DNA of 64,000 bases from Octopus vulgaris (lineage: Eukaryota), in the NCBI GenBank assembly GCA_951406725.2, contig OX597833.1, positions 54,312,001 to 54,376,000 of the forward strand. The letters run 5' to 3'. Below the pieces are notes generated by a model, which worked only from the letters and a program-made list of their open reading frames with translations, ran no database searches and was not told where the DNA came from. Made by a program: the position numbers and the translations under genes. The first letter of the stretch is position 1, and the number at the start of each line of letters is the position of its first letter. This document shows, one piece after another, positions 1 through 61,641 of this stretch.

Positions 1-70
1 CTCCAGCCTTCATCAGGTGTCTTGGGAAAATTTCGAAACTGGGTTTTCGTTCCTAAAGTATTTTTCGATG
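1..70 (-). mobile_element. Truncated short element with hammerhead 5' core (cut by window edge)
   Basis: Minus strand reads ...gacac CTGATGA aggctggag (core = 10-16); the rest lies outside the window; abuts a TTG/TTC/TAA microsatellite. Confidence 0.35.
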
Positions 71-5462: not shown

Positions 5463-6992
5463 AATATACGGGGTGCTATATCTGAATATATATGTGTGTG
5501 CATGTATATATATATATGATATATATGTGTATTTGTACATGCATACATATTTGCATACCTGCATACTTGCATAGGTGCATTCGTTAATACTTACTTTCAT
5601 ATATCTACCCACATATATATACATGTATACCATTATCAATTCCATAATAATAAGTATGAACATAAACGTTCACCTGTTTCAATTATGCATGGTTACTGAC
5701 GTAACGTAGATTCTAGAAATAAGAATAGGTATGGCATGATGGTGGCAACAATGGTGGTGTTGGTGGTGGTGGTGGTGGTGGTGGCGGTGACGACGGCAGC
5801 GATGGTGGCGGCGGTGGCAGCGCCGGTGGTGGTGGTGGTGGTGGTGGTGGTGGGGAAGTTTAAGTCTCTTCAAGTGATGTGGATGATCTAGTTATCTATA
5901 ACACTAACTACAGAAAGACAATTAATTGGTTGCCTGTCTTCCTTTCTCTCCCTTTCTCTCTCTATCACACACACACAAGTACATGCACACACACACACAC
6001 ACACACAAGTACATGCACACACATACACACACATGCGCACACATACATACACGCATGCACACACACAGGTAAGATATAGAGAGACGGCGACAGGTTGATT
6101 TCAACCAAATTCTGCTCGGGGATAAGCAACAGAAGGTGAAGAACATAAAAGTAATTCCAAGATACCAATTTATCTAGTTCACATATTACACAACACAGAG
6201 TTCTATAATATAACTTTCACTATACTTTAAAGATGAGTGGAACACAATTTATGGAAGCTGAAGAGGATCATGTGAAAAACTTAGACTACTTTGAATTTGA
6301 ATTTCTAACCTTCAGTAGATTTAATCCGGCATTTGGTTTAACACTGCTATCACCTGGCCCCTGGGTGTTCTTTAGTAGAGTAAATTCTGTTGAAAGCCCT
6401 TTGGGGGTCAGGTTTCGTGCCAGCGAATAAATTCTTCTCATCAATTTCGGAGACCTTTAAAAATGGATAATTGGCGCTACATTGCCACCTTTGATTAAGC
6501 CATGTTGTCGTTGCCATCGTCATCATCATCACATCATGTCATCATCATCATCATCACATCATCATCATCATCATCACATCATCATCATCATCATCATGTC
6601 GTCATCATCAGCGCTGTCATCATCATCGTTGTTGTTCTTGTCACCAGTGCAATTGTCACTGTTATCATCATCATCATCATCATCATCGCCAACACCCCAC
6701 CACCACCTCCACCGCCACCACCATCATTATCATCATTTTTAATGTCCACTTTCTCATGCTTGCATATACAAAGACCTTGAGGTAGATATTTTAATGGCTT
6801 GATGCCTTTCCTGTTGCCAACCCTCCCCTGTTTTCAAGGAAGATAATAAATAATTTTCCTATGGCTTGATAAGTTCTCACAGAATATTGGAAATGAGTGT
6901 CATCACTTGTATGATAGCAACACTCATTCACAACTGTCACATGCCGTCAAGATATATATATATATATATTACTTATTCATCCTCTCACACCA

Positions 6993-7042
6993 TCTCCAAT
7001 GAAGGGATATAATTAATAAATATCCTGGAAACAGCTGTAAGA
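6993..7042 (+). ncRNA. Degenerate minimal hammerhead-like motif in a TA-flanked element
   Basis: tct CCAATGA [agggata...tatcct] g GAA ACAGCTGT A aga; palindromic stem III; core has two substitutions. Confidence 0.5.
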
Positions 7043-7111
7043 CCTATCTATAAATGTTCTAATATCTACACAGCCTTGGTCTTTTATCTCATTATGCAAA
7101 AAAATTCATAC

Positions 7112-7145
<34 letters not shown>

Positions 7146-7156
7146 TCTTGACACCA

Positions 7157-7207
7157 AGCTTCCTGATGATTTCATTTGAATGAAACAGTTCTAGTCCTGT
7201 AGAAGCT
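7157..7207 (+). ncRNA. Type I hammerhead ribozyme motif
   Basis: Stem I agcttc/gaagct (6 bp), CTGATGA 7163-7169, weak stem II ttca/tgaa, GAAA 7182-7185, stem III acag/ctgt, GTA cleavage triplet; lies in a ~145-bp element between TA tracts. Confidence 0.75.
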
Positions 7208-7609
7208 CCTTCTATAAAATAAATTAATTTACTCTGCTATGTATTGAGTACCTTATTTACTGTGGTTAACCCCAACTCAACCCGGGACCTACATATATAT
7301 ATATATATACACATAAAGAGGCCACAAATGATGTTTAAAATTTATGACAGCTGTTTTGGGAGAATATTATAGATGCATTCATAGATTACGTCATAACATA
7401 GAATCCACCATCATCAGGTAACATTTTAAACAGATATGATGTTAACCAGGTGAGATTTCATACATTGAACATGATGAATCCAATCTTTACCTCCCTGTGA
7501 ACTCTCTGTTATTACACCTAGCCATTTCTGGCATCCTACATATTGTTGTGCCTAGTTTCTATTGAAATGAATCCCTATAGCCTACTTATACATACATATA
7601 TATATGTGA

Positions 7610-8165
7610 AAACATGTTTGGCCGGGGAGAAATAGCACCTTGCTTGGAAACAGATGAGGGTTAGTGACAGGAAGGGCATCCAGTCAGAGAAAATGTGACC
7701 AACCAACGAATTCTGTCTGACCTTTGCAAGCAAGGGAAACTGAACATTGAACATAGAAAACGATGACGACAAGGATGATGGTGGTGGTGGTGATGATGAT
7801 GGTAATGATGATGATGATGATTACGACGACGACAATGACCATGACAATGATGATGAAGATGACGACGACAACGGCAACGATGATGATGACAATGACAATG
7901 ATGATGGTGATGATGATGATGATTTTGATGATGATGATGATGAAAATTATGATGATGGTGATGATGATGATGATGATGATGATAACGACGACAATGACAA
8001 TGATGATGATGGTGGTAGTGATGATGATGATGGTGATGACGATGATGATGATAATGACAATGATGATGATGACGACAACGACGATGATGATGATGACGAT
8101 GATGCTGATGATGCTGATGATGATGATGATGATGATGAAGATGGTAGTGATGATGACTATGATTC
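7610..8165 (+). mobile_element. RTE-type 3'-end fragment followed by an expanded (GAT)n tail
   Basis: aggaagggcatccag...ggaaac.gaacatt motif running directly into a ~400-bp GAT/GAC array. Confidence 0.65.
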
Positions 8166-15060: not shown

Positions 15061-15398
15061 TACATTGAAGACCTTAGTAAATTAATTCATTCTGCCAAAT
15101 GATCTTTCCTTGATTCACAAATGAAATTGTAATAGCTGGGTGGATAACTAAACTATCAATTAAAAAAGCAAGTGAAACACACTTAATTCTCAACCTGCTT
15201 TTTTTTTTTCTTGCAGAACAGTTAAGATTTGAGAAAATACTGGGTATCACCATATAAGGTGAACACTAGTGTCCTGAGGGTGCTGCTGTCTTCTGTCTCC
15301 CAATGCAGGAGTTGGTGCTTCATCAGGTGGTGAAGCTGCTCCGTAAGTGTCTCAGGTCTTCTGCCACAACATCAGATCTGCCCAAGGCCACCCACCAA

Positions 15399-16182
15399 TG
15401 TAGAGGACAAAATTTCCACACAAATAATATGAGCTTTATTAAATCAAATTTTGTGACTCTGGGCCAAATGTTTCTACCATCCCCATACTCATTCTTGCTA
15501 GGCTACTCATTGTAGAGGACAAAATTTCCACACAAACAACATGAGCTTTATTAAATCAAATTTTGTGACTCTGGGCCAAATGTTTCTACCATACCCATAC
15601 TCATTCTTGCTAGGCCACTCATTGTAGAGAACAAAATTTCCACACAAACAACATGAGCTTTATTAAATCAAATTTTGTGATTCAGGGCCAAATGTTTCTA
15701 CCATACCCATACTCATTCTTGCTAGGCCACTCATTGTAGAGGACAAAATTTCCACACAAACAACATGAGCTTTATTAAATCAAATTTTGTGACTCTGGGC
15801 CAAATGTTTCTACCATCCCCATACTCATTCTTGCTAGGCCACTCATTGTAGAGAACAAAATTTCCACACAAACAACATGAGCTTTATTAAATCAAATTTT
15901 GTGATTCAGGGCCAAATGTTTCTACCATACCCATACTCATTCTTGCTAGGCCACTCATTGTAGAGGACAAAATTTCCACACAAACAACATGAGCTTTATT
16001 AAATCAAATTTTGTGACTCTGGGCCAAATGTTTCTACCATCCCCATACTCATTCTTGCTAGGCCACTCATTGTAGAGGACAACATTTCCACACAAACAAC
16101 ATGAGCTTTATTAAATCAAATTTTGTGATTCTGGGCCAAATGTTTCTACCATACCCATAATCATTCTTGCTACACCACTCAT
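15399..16182. repeat. Tandem repeat, 112-bp unit x7
   Basis: Units start at 15399, 15511, 15623, 15735, 15847, 15959 and 16071 and are near identical. Confidence 0.97.
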
Positions 16183-16291
16183 CTTCTTCCTTGAACCAGA
16201 TGTAATGACTTTCTTTCTTAGCAGCTTCTGACAAATTTTCTATCCTTTGCAGCAAGTCCAAGACACTTGGGTATTAAATGCAAGATATTTA

Positions 16292-21167: not shown

Positions 21168-21561
21168 GCGGAGATGTACTCGCATAGCAAGTAATTTGAT
21201 CTGAGATCGTATGCTGAAACGAAAACAATTGCAGCGTGGAAGGTGTTTATAAGCCATTTAAGAAACACACAAAAGCCGTTCGATTCATTTCAACATTTAA
21301 GTTTAATTTGTCAAAATATTTTCGTCGCTAAAATCCGCGACCTGTTCACTGACAAAAATCCGTGCTGTCAAAATATTTTTGTCGCTAAAATCCCGACCTG
21401 TTCACTGACAAAAATCCGTGCTGCAGCACGGATTTTTGTCAGTGAACAGGTCGCGGATTTTAGTGACGAAAATATTTTGACAAATTAAACTTAAATGTTG
21501 AAGTGAATCGAACGGCTTTTGTGTGTTTCTTAAATGGCTTATAAACACCTTTCACGCTGCA

Positions 21562-24404: not shown

Positions 24405-24721
24405 CATATATATAAATATATATGTATATATATAGAGAGAGAGATAGAGTTTACAATTTATAGGAAAATCCAGGGGAATAATCCCAAGGTAGCTAAATGT
24501 TGCTTAAGTATCCCAGGATTTAATTCGAGGATAGTAAATTGTATTTAGTAGAAAATAGGAAAATTGAATAAGGAGACGAATGCTCAGGATGTTGTCAAAC
24601 CATTTATATCTTGAATTCTTCTACATATGTTTCAACAGATGCACTTGGAAAAGCCTCAGAGTTCTCTCTTCATTCACCAGTCTATATAAAAACGCAATAA
24701 ACAATCTGAAATGCTCTCCCA

Positions 24722-28815: not shown

Positions 28816-29027
28816 AATTATAATTTAGGGTACCTAAGAGATACCACCAGGCTGTAAATAGCAGCCAAAACTTGACTCTAAAACTCCATTAAATGTTTAT
28901 ACAGCACCAGGAGAGATGATAAAGAGACAAAGTAAACATTACTGGATAATTCCAGATCCTGGATTTCTGGCTTTGCATAAGAAATGCTTTGCTTCATCAG
29001 TGGAATATACGCAGATAGCACATAAAT

Positions 29028-29063
<36 letters not shown>

Positions 29064-29256
29064 TTATGAAGGCAGAACATTTCTTATGCAAAGCCAGAAA
29101 TCTGGGATCTGGAATTATCCAGTAATTTTTTTGCTAGTTTATTTTGCCTCTTTGTCTTCTATCCTGGTGCTGTATGAACATTTAGTGTTTTTAGAGTCAA
29201 GTTTTGACTGTTGTTTCCAGCATGGTGGTGTCTCTTAGATACCTTAAATTATAATT
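28816..29256. mobile_element. Fold-back element (~185-bp arms around a TA tract) with a hammerhead motif on the minus strand at 28949-29006
   Basis: Arms 28816-28997 / 29066-29256; attcca CTGATGA agc..gcat/atgc..gcc a GAA atc-cag-gat C tggaat. Confidence 0.78.
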
Positions 29257-32689: not shown

Positions 32690-33810
32690 ACTTACTGTAG
32701 AGATGCTTTGTAGATGACATTTTTTTGTTTTTTCCTTCAGGAGCATAGATGAATAAGTTGTCTGGATGGCCAACTCTGGAACAACCGATGTAGAACTGTC
32801 CATGTGAAAAGCACAATGTTTGAAGGTCCAATCCGACAACTTTTAGTGACTGATCTTGGGCTTTGTCAATTGTCATGGTGAAGCTGAGTTTGAGAGGGAA
32901 CTGAAGTCTGTCTCTGCATAGGGTAGGGGCAGTCTGTTGGGGTTAGTGGAATTTTCGGATTGAAAACGGTATTTAGGCTTCAGTGACATGGTCCATCATT
33001 TGTTTGACAACAAGGCGAGTTCCATTGCATAGTGTGGGTACGTTTGGATTGCATAGGAGGATGACATGGTAACTGACATTTAAGTGAAGTTCATGGGGAG
33101 GAAGTCCTGGAGGATCTTTGGAGTAGAGAAATTCTGTTAGAAATTGTGTAACCTGATCAAGTTCGATAATGGTGTCAAGTGATCTGTAACAAAGTTCTTG
33201 AGAAGGTAGCTGACTGAGTAAGTCATAGTTAACAGTGTTGACAGCGGCATTTGTAGGTGCAAGAACAGCCCTGTCACAAAACGAATCTGGTTTTATGTAT
33301 TCCATTGTAAGATTTGGGTAAATGGCAGAAGATAGGTCATCAGGCCTGGAGAAAGTGTGGCCAATGGTAGTAGTGTTAATGTATTTGTTGTCATCAAATG
33401 TAATTTGACCATTGCTGATTTTAAGGAGCATTTCCAAAATATGAGTTGTAGGCTGACCAGTCTGTAGGAGTGATCTCAGGTTGATGGTGAGTTGTTTCGA
33501 TTGGACATGTGACCAAATGAGGAATTTTTTAAGGCAGGCATTAAGTTCATCAGCAGGTGTTCTTTTGGGTATAATAAGCAGAATTGTTGAAAATCTCCTG
33601 CAAGAAGCAGAGTAGCTCCGCCAAGGTTGTTGTTGCTTGATCTAAGGTCTGTCGTTGTGGTATCAAGTGCTTGTAGGGAACATTTTTGGGACATAGCTGC
33701 TACATCCCAAATAATGAGTTTGCACTTTTTCAAAATTGTCACTTCATCTGAGGAATGTATTATGTGGCATGTTGGGTTTTCTTGATGTGCTACATTGAAA
33801 GGCAATTTGG
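32690..33810 (-). pseudogene. Helitron PIF1-like helicase, frameshifted with stops
   Basis: LIIWD...GGATLLLAGDFQQ, RAVLAPTNAAV, PPGLPPHELHL...LCNGTRL, QFPLKLSFTMTIDKAQDQSL..VGLDL...FSHGQFYIGCSRV. Confidence 0.92.
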
Positions 33811-34135
33811 AAGCATTCAGAGTTCAGTGGGTGAACTGTGTAGACACGTCCGAATGAGTCACCTTTGTACATGGCTGGATCCAACTGTGTAGACTTACGG
33901 TGTAAGGGAGACAAAAAATACTTCTGACTGTTACTTCAGACCTTCTGCTTTTGAAGCCCCATTTCTCTATATCACTCCATAAGTGAAAAATCTAAATAGT
34001 GTTGAGCAATCTGTGAAACATAAATGATGTATTTGCAGAGCGTGAATGAAATCGGATGAAAAATATTGATTTTACGTGAGATCAAGTAATGGTCTGTCTC
34101 ACACACACACACACACACACACACATCATCTCTCT

Positions 34136-36236: not shown

Positions 36237-36411
36237 GATTGTTAGCCACTACACACATCTTTTTCTCTCCTTGTTTTTTCTGTGTCCCTTTCTGTAGAAG
36301 AGCATAGGCTCGAAACGTAAAAGACTTTTTCTATTCCTGAGCGTTATACTAATACATCTGTTTGTTTTGTACACCACCTGTCTTCGTCTTTTGTTTTTTT
36401 GTAAACTCTCC

Positions 36412-36412
<1 letters not shown>
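36237..36412 (+). mobile_element. TA-flanked mini-element with minimal hammerhead (CUGU-NGA family), motif 36288-36323
   Basis: cttt CTGTAGA a gagc-atag-gctc GAA acgt A aaag; homologues at 50.8 kb and 54.6 kb. Confidence 0.75.
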
Positions 36413-36442
<30 letters not shown>

Positions 36443-37146: not shown

Positions 37147-37502
<356 letters not shown>

Positions 37503-49592: not shown

Positions 49593-49625
49593 ATTTTGTT
49601 GAATTTTCTGCTGCTTAAAATAAAG

Positions 49626-49815
49626 TATATAAAATATTAGAAAAAAACCACCTTTTATCAATTCAAAATGAATAATTAAATTACCCCATCTAGAAAATTA
49701 CATATAATAGAAAAGTTAAAATTAAAATAATCAAAATATATGTAATTTTCTAGATGGTGTAATCTAATAATTCCTTTTGAATTGATAAAAGGTGGTTTTT
49801 CTAATATTTTATATA
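49626..49815. repeat. Inverted repeat, ~80-bp arms
   Basis: aaaatattagaaaaa..ccaccttttatcaattcaaaa...tctagaaaattacata mirrored downstream. Confidence 0.85.
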
Positions 49816-49904
49816 TATATCATATTGTATGTAATTTGATTTAGTATTTCTAAGTTGAATTCTTTTTCCTTGTAAGTTTGGATTTTATTCCCTCAAATAA
49901 TAAT

Positions 49905-49977
<73 letters not shown>

Positions 49978-50551: not shown

Positions 50552-50928
50552 ATCAGCACTGACCACTTCCCAGACCCACATTTTCACACCTACACATACA
50601 CACACGCACACGTCAAGATCACCAGCCCTCTTCCACACACACATACCACTCTCTTATACACACACACATGCACGTCCACCTTCATTTTGGGATCACCACC
50701 ACTTTGTTATCTCCCCTTCTCCCTAGCTCTCCTGTCTGGCCTTCGCCACGATAGATCGCTAGCCACTACACATTCTTTATTTTTCTCTCCTTGTTTCTTT
50801 CTGTGTTCCTTTCTGTGGAAGAGCATAGGCTCGAAACGTTAAAGACTTTTTCACTTCCCGAGTGTTAAACTAATACATCTGTTTGTTGTCTACACCACCT
50901 GCCTTCGTCTTTTTTGTGAATTCTCCCT
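50552..50928 (+). mobile_element. Longer copy of the CUGU-NGA hammerhead element, motif 50809-50844
   Basis: cttt CTGTGGA a gagc-atag-gctc GAA acgt T aaag; same 3' end (ctccc-(TA)n) as 36237-36412. Confidence 0.75.
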
Positions 50929-50947
50929 ATATATATATATATATATA

Positions 50948-51222
50948 AGTTCAGTAAAATTTAGATTCAGTTGAATATGGTACTTAAGTTAAAGGCACCA
51001 GAATTTAGTGTGGTATTATCCATATAATTCAAAATGGGGTGATTACAATCAAAATAAGCAGCAAGGATATCCAGAGGTAATGCAGTACGATCGTTTCATG
51101 CGACTTCATTTAATTGAACAATGCAAATTTTAAACCTGATGTAATATTTGCATTGTTCAGTTAAATGAAGTCACATGAAACGATCATACTGCATTACCTC
51201 TGGATATCCTTGTTGCTTATTT

Positions 51223-54596: not shown

Positions 54597-54786
54597 GATT
54601 CGCTAGCTTCTGCACGCATTTTTTTTCTCTCCTTGTTTCTTTTCTGTGTATCTTTCTGTTGAAGAGCTTAGGCTCGAAACGTAAAAGACTTGTTTTATTT
54701 ATATTCCTGATCGCCATACTAATACAATTGTTTGTTTATATTCCACCTGCCTTCGTCTTTTGTTTATTTTCATAAAGCTTCCCGTT
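54597..54786 (+). mobile_element. TA-flanked CUGU-NGA hammerhead element, motif 54651-54688
   Basis: tcttt CTGTTGA a gagc-ttag-gctc GAA acgt A aaaga. Confidence 0.75.
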
Positions 54787-55113
54787 ATATATATTTATAT
54801 TTATATTATATATATTATTATATATATATGTACATACATACATATATACATATATCACCATCTATGTATGCATTCATATATATGTGTGTATGTATGTACG
54901 TATGTATGTTTGGGAGTGGCACTTCTTCACACATCTCTCCTCACCCATTCTTTGTGCTTGCATGGGTTGGATAGTTTGACAGAAGCTGGCAAGCTGGAGG
55001 CACCAGTTGTCTGTCTTGATATGGCTTCTACAGCTAGATGCTCTTCCTAAATGCCAACCACTTCACAGAGTATACCGGGTGCTTTAACATGGTACCGATG
55101 CATGTGTGTGTGA

Positions 55114-60270: not shown

Positions 60271-61068
60271 ATCATTATTGACATAGCGGGTTGACAAAGA
60301 AACAGTGATGATGCAAGGCAGAGAAAGCAGTTTAAGTTTTGCTGAGGACATGTCAACCCTTCTAATGCTGGTGCCACAATAAAATGCACCCACCACTCTC
60401 TGTGCAATAGTTGCTGTTCAGAAGGGCATCAAGCCATTGAAACCATGTGGATGCATTTAATGTTGTCCTTGCATTTATAAGTGTAGAAAGAAATAACCAC
60501 AAGGTAAGACAAAAACACATTAAGCTCAATGATTTTTTTTCTAAGTTCAACAAGGCAAACAAATCTGTCTATAATCACGATTGTTATCTTCGTCATCATG
60601 ATCATTATCATTATCATCATCTTTGTCATCATTCCTGTCACCATCACCGTCATCATCACCACCACCACCACCACCACCATTACTCTCTCCAGCTTTATCC
60701 TTAGTTCCATCGCAACATAGTTCTCATTATTATTCCTGCAACAATTTTTTTCCAGTATGTATGTATGCATGTAGGCATACATACACAACTGATTTATAAA
60801 AACATACAAGTTACACACACACACACATAAGCACACACACGCATAAACACACACAAACACACACATACATATACATATATATCTCTCCACACACAGACGA
60901 ACACACCACACTTACACATACATACAGATACATATATGTATATATATACATACATACATATATATATATATATAGTGTAATAAATAAAATATATGCATAC
61001 ATACAAACATATATGTACGTACCTATGTCTACATGTATATATACATGCATATATAAATATATATACGT

Positions 61069-61539
61069 GAGTACAGGACACCACAACTAGACGTAGAACT
61101 TAACGAGAAACGAAAACGGAAAAGCCATTTTTTACAACAGAAAAACAGAGACATGGAACTGGACAAGAAACAAAAACGGGAAAGACATTTTTTTACAACA
61201 GAAAAACAGAGTACAGGACATACTACACAAGGAAAAATCCCCAATCATCAGCTGTCCCTAGTTAGACTCAAGCGTGTTTCAAAGGCAAAACAGGACACGA
61301 CTCGTCAAAACTAGGCCTTCCTGTGAGAGAATTAAAATAAAATTATCTCGCAGAGGGGTAAAAACAAGCAAGAAAATAATGTAACACAAACAGGACGTAA
61401 CAATAAAACGCCTAGTTTTGACGAGTCGTGTCCTGTCTTGCCTTTGATACAGGCTTGAGTCTAACTAGCGACAACTGATGATTGGGGATTTTTCCTTGTG
61501 TAGTATGTCCTGTACTCTGTTTTTCTGTTGTAAAAAAAT
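61069..61539. mobile_element. TA-adjacent fold-back element, ~130-bp arms
   Basis: Arms 61187-61316 / 61410-61539; contain TTGACGA, GAAAC and CTGATGA words. Confidence 0.8.
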
Positions 61540-61595
61540 TCTAGTCTTAGGTATTCGTCGTGTGTGAAAATAAAAACTTTTCACTTTTTACTTTT

Positions 61596-61641
<46 letters not shown>

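What the first reader, a model, noticed from the sequence alone, without database searches (positions are those of the whole stretch)
7157..7207. Best canonical candidate: near-complete monomeric type I hammerhead
Seen: AGCUUC CUGAUGA u uuca-uu-ugaa u GAA ACAG-uucuaguc-CUGU A GAAGCU. All core nucleotides, a 6-bp stem I and a 4-bp stem III are present. Weak points are the U-U at 10.1/11.1 and a tight loop II. The stem III region is two substitutions from the perfect palindrome acaggactagtcctgt.
Basis: partly seen in the sequence, partly recalled or inferred. Interest (0 to 1): 0.72.

Follow-up and report, generated by a model that had tools for sequence, protein, structure and literature searches.

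The report
Hammerhead ribozyme in abundant animal repeat
The motif is a real self-cutting-RNA (hammerhead) pattern, but it is one copy of a very abundant short repeat, most likely the broken-off tail of a Penelope-type jumping gene, a known kind of arrangement, and its folding suggests it cuts weakly or only briefly.

Summary
The letters at 7157-7207 are as described. All 13 core positions and stems I and III are present. No motif this complete arose in 2,659 simulated windows. It is not a unique ribozyme. It lies in a ~145-bp unit (7147-7292) between TA tracts, and public DNA runs of three related organisms hold that unit at very high copy. Hammerhead-like remnants in this window tend to end 70-120 nt upstream of a TA tract (8 of 15, against 6 of 130 controls), the pattern expected of 5'-truncated Penelope-like insertions. 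'Canonical' is not supported: Rfam gives no hammerhead hit, there is no loop-1 stem, and stem II is 3 bp on a U-U pair. A slipped stem II hides the GAA core, and a downstream hairpin (7198-7216) captures the cleavage site. The U-U pair and loop III look like family features rather than decay (indirect). Cleavage, transcription and a link to a Penelope ORF are not shown. Verdict: new member of a known kind, interest about 0.3.

The parts
7157..7207 (+). Type I hammerhead motif; predicted cleavage between A7201 and G7202
   Evidence: Sequence; descriptor and null model
7157..7162 (+). Stem I 5' strand, pairs with 7202-7207 (6 bp)
   Evidence: pair probability 0.92-0.94 while the 3' end is at 7207-7212
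7163..7169 (+). Core C3-A9 (CUGAUGA)
7170..7181 (+). Helix II: U-U at 10.1/11.1, 3 bp (7171-7173 with 7178-7180), loop AUUU; does not fold on its own
7170..7185 (+). 16-nt near-palindrome that allows a slipped stem II (7171-7175 with 7180-7184) hiding G12-A13-A14, or an intermolecular duplex (-14.0 kcal/mol)
7182..7184 (+). Core G12-A13-A14
7185..7200 (+). Helix III, 4 bp plus 8-nt loop with central CUAG; 16-nt near-palindrome that can self-dimerise (-12.8 kcal/mol)
7198..7216 (+). Competing hairpin (7198-7205 with 7209-7216) that takes the cleavage site and most of the 3' strand of stem I
   Evidence: probability 0.87-0.95 once 7216 is included
7147..7292 (+). High-copy repeat unit carrying the motif: 10 nt upstream of stem I and about 85 nt downstream, ending at a TA tract. 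Boundaries are read from the flanking microsatellites
7108..7146 (.). (TACA)n(TA)n tract, left flank
7293..7310 (.). TA tract, right flank and probable insertion target
6983..7107 (+). Neighbouring high-copy unit of another family, same orientation, with a core-altered minimal hammerhead-like motif at about 6995-7045 (long helix II, short palindromic helix III)

Best explanation
A genuine type I hammerhead carried near the 3' end of a very abundant retroelement of the Penelope system, either the pseudo-LTR of an autonomous element or a short non-autonomous derivative. This copy is a 5'-truncated, ~145-bp tail inserted into a TA microsatellite, directly behind a similar remnant of another family. 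Shown: the motif, the high copy number, the TA-flanked unit and the shared layout with other remnants. Inferred: in the parent element the ribozyme cuts the transcript after A7201 to define the end of the transposition RNA. It probably does so weakly, either co-transcriptionally in a window of about 8 nt before the 7198-7216 hairpin forms or as a dimer through palindromic helix III. The hairpin would then release the products and keep mature RNA uncut. This particular copy is most likely a passenger with no host function.
For: Summed contig depth over 7156-7287 at >=80% likeness is 0.46-1.2 million in X4, 16-76 thousand in X8 and 165-734 thousand in X9. Single contigs in those runs have depths of about 40-50, 5-12 and 5-12, and the right flank 7321-7584 reaches only 0.8-8 thousand in X4. 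Among 15 hammerhead-like anchors, 8 have a TA tract starting 70-120 nt downstream, against 6 of 130 other GAAAC sites (Fisher p=4e-6). Two back-to-back pairs occur (7028+7182 and 36111+36312). Published: PLE hammerheads are mostly found as single motifs, probably from truncated elements, and 5'-truncated PLEs keep only the 3' hammerhead (PMC4209133). PLEs tend to insert next to existing copies (PMC6765202). TA microsatellites are preferred targets of one PLE clade (10.1101/2021.04.23.441226). One listed family, Saccoglossus (2), has a similar layout with no extra base after A9, a longer palindromic helix III and a GUA site.
Against: No PLE RT or GIY-YIG domain is linked: 0 such Pfam hits in the 89 frames scanned, of 201 candidate frames of 55 aa or more, and no host genome was available. 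The motif departs from the PLE minimal consensus (no G10.1-C11.1, short helix II, long helix III). The TA-target statement I read concerns Naiads, which lack hammerheads. The 70-120 nt range was chosen after seeing the data. Summed depth is not a copy number. The catalytic fold is about 0.4% of the predicted ensemble. The unit's ends fall in stretches that the read-laying tool skipped, so whether relatives run on into longer elements is unseen.
Confidence: 0.6

Rival explanations
1. A solo or partial unit of a non-LTR retrozyme: a non-coding tandem repeat whose multimeric transcripts are cut by this hammerhead into monomers that circularise and are re-inserted by PLE enzymes.
For: A 6-bp helix I and a monomer-capable helix III resemble retrozyme hammerheads. 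Axolotl HHR_Amex2 has U-U at the base of helix II and cleaves, and mussel retrozyme hammerheads lack the tertiary signature (PMC7229834). Abundance relative to a neighbouring repeat peak (7651-7683) varies between organisms: 2.8x, 1.9x and 16x at bin 7189-7221, as arrays would. Family-like contigs occur in a probable RNA run. Solo monomers are common in such families (10.64898/2026.07.22.740005).
Against: There is no second copy in the window, and the unit is shorter than the 150-450 bp usually given. No head-to-tail joint was among the 15 of 34 joints shown. In the RNA run the unit is lower than the neighbouring repeat (0.08-0.32x), although polyA libraries lose circles and the runs come from different organisms.
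Confidence: 0.27
2. The hammerhead look is incidental or dead: a palindrome-rich DNA repeat amplifies for other reasons and its RNA never reaches the catalytic fold.
For: The 60 nt hold three near-palindromes. The slipped stem II and the 3' hairpin dominate the predicted ensemble. No Rfam match. Only 1 of 9 predicted Xenopus retrozyme dimers cleaved in vitro.
Against: 13 of 13 core bases sit at the exact junctions. 0 of 2,659 simulated windows and 0 of 120 metagenome loci sharing the 5' letters complete the fold. Other hammerhead-like families share the layout. Nearest-neighbour energies do not score the core's non-canonical pairs.
Confidence: 0.1
3. A domesticated, locus-specific ribozyme acting on a host transcript, like the conserved intronic hammerheads of amniotes.
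For: The core is intact. The surrounding locus is shared with organism B at about 97-98% (records 9 and 16).
Against: The unit is high-copy rather than unique. No host exon was verified nearby: the one candidate (6310-6454, opposite strand) has 0 homologues among 1.84 billion proteins. No contig bridging the unit in another organism was among the 32 pieces shown.
Confidence: 0.03

Closest known systems
Type I hammerheads in pseudo-LTRs of Penelope-like elements (Cervera & de la Pena 2014, PMC4209133)
   Same: Type I topology, full core, palindromic helix III region, dispersed single copies at high number, AU-rich flanks, no clear loop 1-loop 2 signature
   Different: 6-bp helix I, short AU-rich helix II on U-U instead of a long G-C-closed helix II, and 4-bp helix III with an 8-nt loop instead of 0-2 bp; no linked ORF shown
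Animal non-LTR retrozymes (Cervera & de la Pena 2020, PMC7229834; Li et al. 2026, 10.64898/2026.07.22.740005), notably axolotl HHR_Amex2 and mussel families
   Same: 6-bp helix I, U-U at the base of helix II (Amex2), missing tertiary signature (mussel), very high and species-variable abundance, low GC
   Different: No tandem arrangement here, unit about 145 bp, longer helix III, no circular RNA shown
Rfam Hammerhead_1 (canonical type I; accession RF00163 recalled, also seen in an earlier AI note)
   Same: Core and three-stem junction
   Different: Does not reach the model's threshold nor E<=10; no loop 1 with closing stem

Membership tests
Hammerhead ribozyme, type I | Core C3 U4 G5 A6 N7 G8 A9, G12 A13 A14, A15.1-U16.1, H17 | tested here: met
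   core as listed in PMC3088659
Hammerhead ribozyme, type I | Three helices with helix I open | tested here: inconclusive
   Helices I and III fold; helix II in catalytic register has probability 0.02 and starts with U-U, a mismatch known in natural examples
Hammerhead ribozyme, type I | Site-specific self-cleavage 3' of N17 | not testable with these tools
   Needs an in vitro assay
Canonical metazoan type I hammerhead (Rfam Hammerhead_1) | Match to the covariance model | tested here: not met
Canonical metazoan type I hammerhead (Rfam Hammerhead_1) | Loop 1 with distal stem and loop 1-loop 2 contact | tested here: not met
   No distal stem within 7147-7217 in the constrained fold; it may have been lost by 5' truncation
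PLE pseudo-LTR hammerhead | Multi-copy dispersed family | tested here: met
   High copy; single in this window; genome-wide dispersion itself not seen
PLE pseudo-LTR hammerhead | Palindromic helix III allowing dimers | tested here: met
   Near-palindrome with 2 mismatched pairs per half; self-duplex -12.8 kcal/mol
PLE pseudo-LTR hammerhead | Minimal consensus: extra base after A9, G10.1-C11.1, long helix II | tested here: not met
   Compared with Fig. S3 text of PMC4209133; some listed families also depart from it
PLE pseudo-LTR hammerhead | Linked RT/GIY-YIG ORF in full-length copies | not testable with these tools
   No genome held; none found in 89 window frames
Non-LTR retrozyme | Head-to-tail repeats of 150-450 bp each with a hammerhead | tested here: inconclusive
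   Not at this locus; other loci unseen
Non-LTR retrozyme | Abundant circular and linear monomer RNA | not testable with these tools
   Only contigs of a probable RNA run were laid

The most novel reading that the evidence does not exclude
An undescribed, very high-copy cephalopod-type retrozyme family whose consensus hammerhead has a built-in off-switch. A slipped helix II and a 3' hairpin would allow cutting only in a short co-transcriptional window or in dimers, with two separate 16-nt palindromes able to join two molecules. The family would have expanded several-fold in one lineage and would make circular RNAs.
Probability: 0.15. Interest if true: 0.55.

Novelty: new member of a known kind. 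Interest (0 to 1): 0.3.

Why it matters
Hammerheads in Penelope-type repeats and retrozymes are well documented in animals, and 235 Hammerhead_1 hits are already reported in a squid genome, so the class is not new. This family falls below Rfam's threshold, and I found no description of octopus hammerheads in four searches. It is a usable example for an open question: what PLE hammerheads do and how their cleavage is timed. It has a monomer-capable helix III, a sharp prediction (cleavage should depend on where the 3' end lies, 7212 against 7217) and apparently little divergence from its family.

Tried and rejected
Rfam scans: no hammerhead at gathering score in the window; 14 weak matches at E<=10 in 6900-7500, none a hammerhead. 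Second copy in the window: none by blastn or fuzzy patterns. Two had a stem-I-like word within 40 nt, and by eye neither completes the fold. Viral contigs gave 0 matches to a longer pattern. Host genome: not held. Host gene: the candidate minus-strand exon 6310-6454 has no homologue, so intronic or intergenic position is unresolved. RNA: no RNA holder on record was listed. In probable-RNA run X10 the depth is higher 3' of the predicted cut (1369 and 1179) than 5' of it (353), unlike the DNA runs. This is one run of contigs from another organism than the DNA runs, so I do not count it as evidence. The right flank has little or no cover in X10, which is also not evidence. A loop II pseudoknot with AAAU at 7217-7225 is possible but AU-only and was not pursued. 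The 'rival' column used wrong positions and was redone. Earlier scan notes: nothing by place or sequence.

Full report
Observation. Stem I pairs 7157-7162 with 7202-7207. The core CUGAUGA is 7163-7169 and GAA is 7182-7184. Helix III pairs 7185-7188 with 7197-7200 around an 8-nt loop, and N17 is A7201. All core positions listed by Perreault et al. (PMC3088659, passages read) are met. A descriptor search found only this hit in the window at all 10 settings. The strict setting gave 0 hits in 2,659 Markov-simulated 64-kb windows, and the loosest setting run on simulated windows gave 4. A rough analytic estimate is 2.5e-6 per window. As a further control, 0 of 120 metagenome loci that share 19 letters of the 5' part complete the fold (judged by a pattern flag and by eye). 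The motif is real.

Context. The window is microsatellite-rich animal DNA of about 35% GC. Its repeats resemble octopus repeats by my recall; no call names the organism, and no genome is held. The motif begins 10 nt after a (TACA)n(TA)n tract ending at 7146, and the unique-looking sequence ends at about 7292 in another TA tract, giving a unit of about 145 bp. There is no second copy in the window. Pfam found no PLE domain in 89 of 201 candidate frames scanned. The one exon-like stretch nearby (6310-6454, minus strand) has no homologue, so no host gene is established.

Copy number. I laid 4 of the 24 listed runs on 6760-7720 at >=80% likeness: DNA-like runs of organisms B, C and D and one probable RNA run of organism A. 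Summed contig depth over 7156-7287 is 0.46-1.2 million (X4), 16-76 thousand (X8) and 165-734 thousand (X9). Single contigs have depths near 40-50, 5-12 and 5-12, and the right flank reaches 0.8-8 thousand in X4. The tool warns that this sum is not a copy number. The ratio of order 10^3-10^5 shows only that the unit is a very high-copy repeat in all three organisms. Against the neighbouring repeat peak at 7651-7683 it stands at 2.8x, 1.9x and 16x, so abundance differs between lineages. The stretch 6983-7095, just upstream, is a second high-copy unit. It carries a core-altered minimal-hammerhead-like motif and aligns poorly with the finding's unit.

Is this copy decayed? The table of other letters shows 40 of 119 rows, none in 7156-7287, whereas older flanking repeats show 16 rows in 6807-6905, 14 in 7357-7446 and 7 in 7624-7687. 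Every row shown has an alternative at 0.43 or more of depth in at least one run (12 borderline rows computed, the other 28 read by eye), including rows of very low depth. I infer that rows are ranked by share, and so that no position of this unit has a majority alternative. On that reading the U-U pair, the non-palindromic loop III and the 3' hairpin are family features, and the copy is close to its family's common form. This is indirect: the ranking rule is my inference, 79 rows are hidden, and mapping favours contigs like the reference.

Shared layout. Fifteen hammerhead-like anchors were picked by a sequence rule plus the finding itself. Eight have a TA tract starting 70-120 nt downstream, against 6 of 130 other GAAAC sites (Fisher p=4e-6; the range was chosen after seeing the data, and some anchors are probably chance matches). 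Two pairs stand back to back across a TA tract (7028 with 7182, and 36111 with 36312). This fits 5'-truncated Penelope-like insertions. Cervera & de la Pena report that most PLE hammerheads occur singly, probably from truncated elements (PMC4209133, parts 1-2 of 4 read), and that truncated PLEs show only the 3' hammerhead (supplement file 2, parts 1-2 of 3). A review states that PLEs insert into or next to existing copies (PMC6765202, passages). Craig et al. describe 5' truncation and TA targets, the latter for Naiads, which lack hammerheads (10.1101/2021.04.23.441226, passages).

Folding. The predicted minimum-energy fold of 7157-7207 keeps helices I and III but slips helix II so that 7171-7175 pairs with 7180-7184, hiding G12-A13-A14. 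The slipped register has probability 0.66 and the catalytic one 0.02. The constrained hammerhead fold is about 0.4% of the ensemble. These energies ignore the core's non-canonical pairs and Mg, so they understate the active fold. Extending the 3' end, helix I holds at 0.92-0.94 from 7207 to 7212 and collapses to 0.04 at 7217, as a hairpin 7198-7205/7209-7216 takes the cleavage site. Both 7170-7185 and 7185-7200 are 16-nt near-palindromes with self-duplex energies of -14.0 and -12.8 kcal/mol. The second permits the classic dimeric hammerhead. The first would give an inactive dimer. The U-U at 10.1/11.1 is tolerated in nature, and axolotl HHR_Amex2 has it and cleaves 22% in one hour as a monomer and better as a dimer (PMC7229834, parts 2-3 of 6).

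Mechanism. Most likely (0.6) this is the 3' tail of a Penelope-system element, inserted into a TA tract behind an earlier remnant. In the parent, the ribozyme would cut after A7201 to define the transposition RNA, weakly, co-transcriptionally or as a dimer, with the downstream hairpin releasing products and silencing the mature RNA. The motif, high copy number and layout are shown. Cleavage, transcription, dimerisation and the link to a PLE ORF are inferred. The main rival (0.27) is a solo unit of a tandem retrozyme making circular RNA. The two are close, since animal retrozymes are proposed to derive from PLE ends (10.64898/2026.07.22.740005, parts 1-3 of 5). An incidental or dead motif gets 0.10, and only 1 of 9 predicted retrozyme dimers cleaved in that study. 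A domesticated host ribozyme gets 0.03.

Comparison and novelty. It works like a type I hammerhead. It is not a canonical Rfam member and does not fit the PLE minimal consensus; the nearest listed layout is Saccoglossus (2). Hammerheads are already counted in a squid genome (235 hits, PMC6962438, passage). A 2026 octopus repeat annotation reports recently active Penelope-like families and does not mention ribozymes in its main text (PMC13282606, passages). Searches for octopus or cephalopod hammerheads (listings only) showed no paper describing them. Unseen material could already hold this family: the supplement of PMC7229834 (unreadable), file 1 of PMC4209133, the datasets of PMC3088659, the supplement of PMC13282606 (listed, not read), bioRxiv supplements (closed), and Lunse et al. 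on dimeric PLE hammerheads (not held). Verdict: real, new member of a known kind, interest 0.3.

Noticed in passing
window 6983-7107 (+): Second very high-copy unit with a minimal hammerhead-like motif whose 5' core is altered; its left junction is shared with organism B (record 9).
   Followed up: partly
window 36270-36416, 37300-37460, 50790-50932, 54632-54790 (+): One family of minimal hammerhead-like remnants ending in TA tracts; 3 of 4 copies have U in place of core A6, possibly a family-level core variant.
   Followed up: partly
window 1-23 (-), 24600-24690 (-), 28273 (+), 36111 (+), 51086-51130 (-): Further hammerhead-like remnants, most with a short palindrome after GAAAC; 1-23 is only the 5' half, cut by the window edge.
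   Followed up: partly
window 32976-33823 (-): Broken Pif1-like helicase reading frames, probably a Helitron remnant (Pfam PF05970 and PF21530).
   Followed up: no
window 15284-16255: Tandem array of 112-bp units, at least 7 copies, 96-97% alike.
   Followed up: no
window 21394-21453: Perfect 60-nt palindrome at the centre of a longer inverted repeat.
   Followed up: no
window 6310-6454 (-): Exon-like stretch with AG/GT ends and a 48-codon open frame, but no homologue among 1.84 billion proteins.
   Followed up: yes
window 61017-61600; 28829-29235; 49600-49930: Several long fold-back (inverted duplicated) stretches seen by eye; 61017-61600 contains the 5' core heptamer in both arms but no hammerhead was evident.
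   Followed up: no
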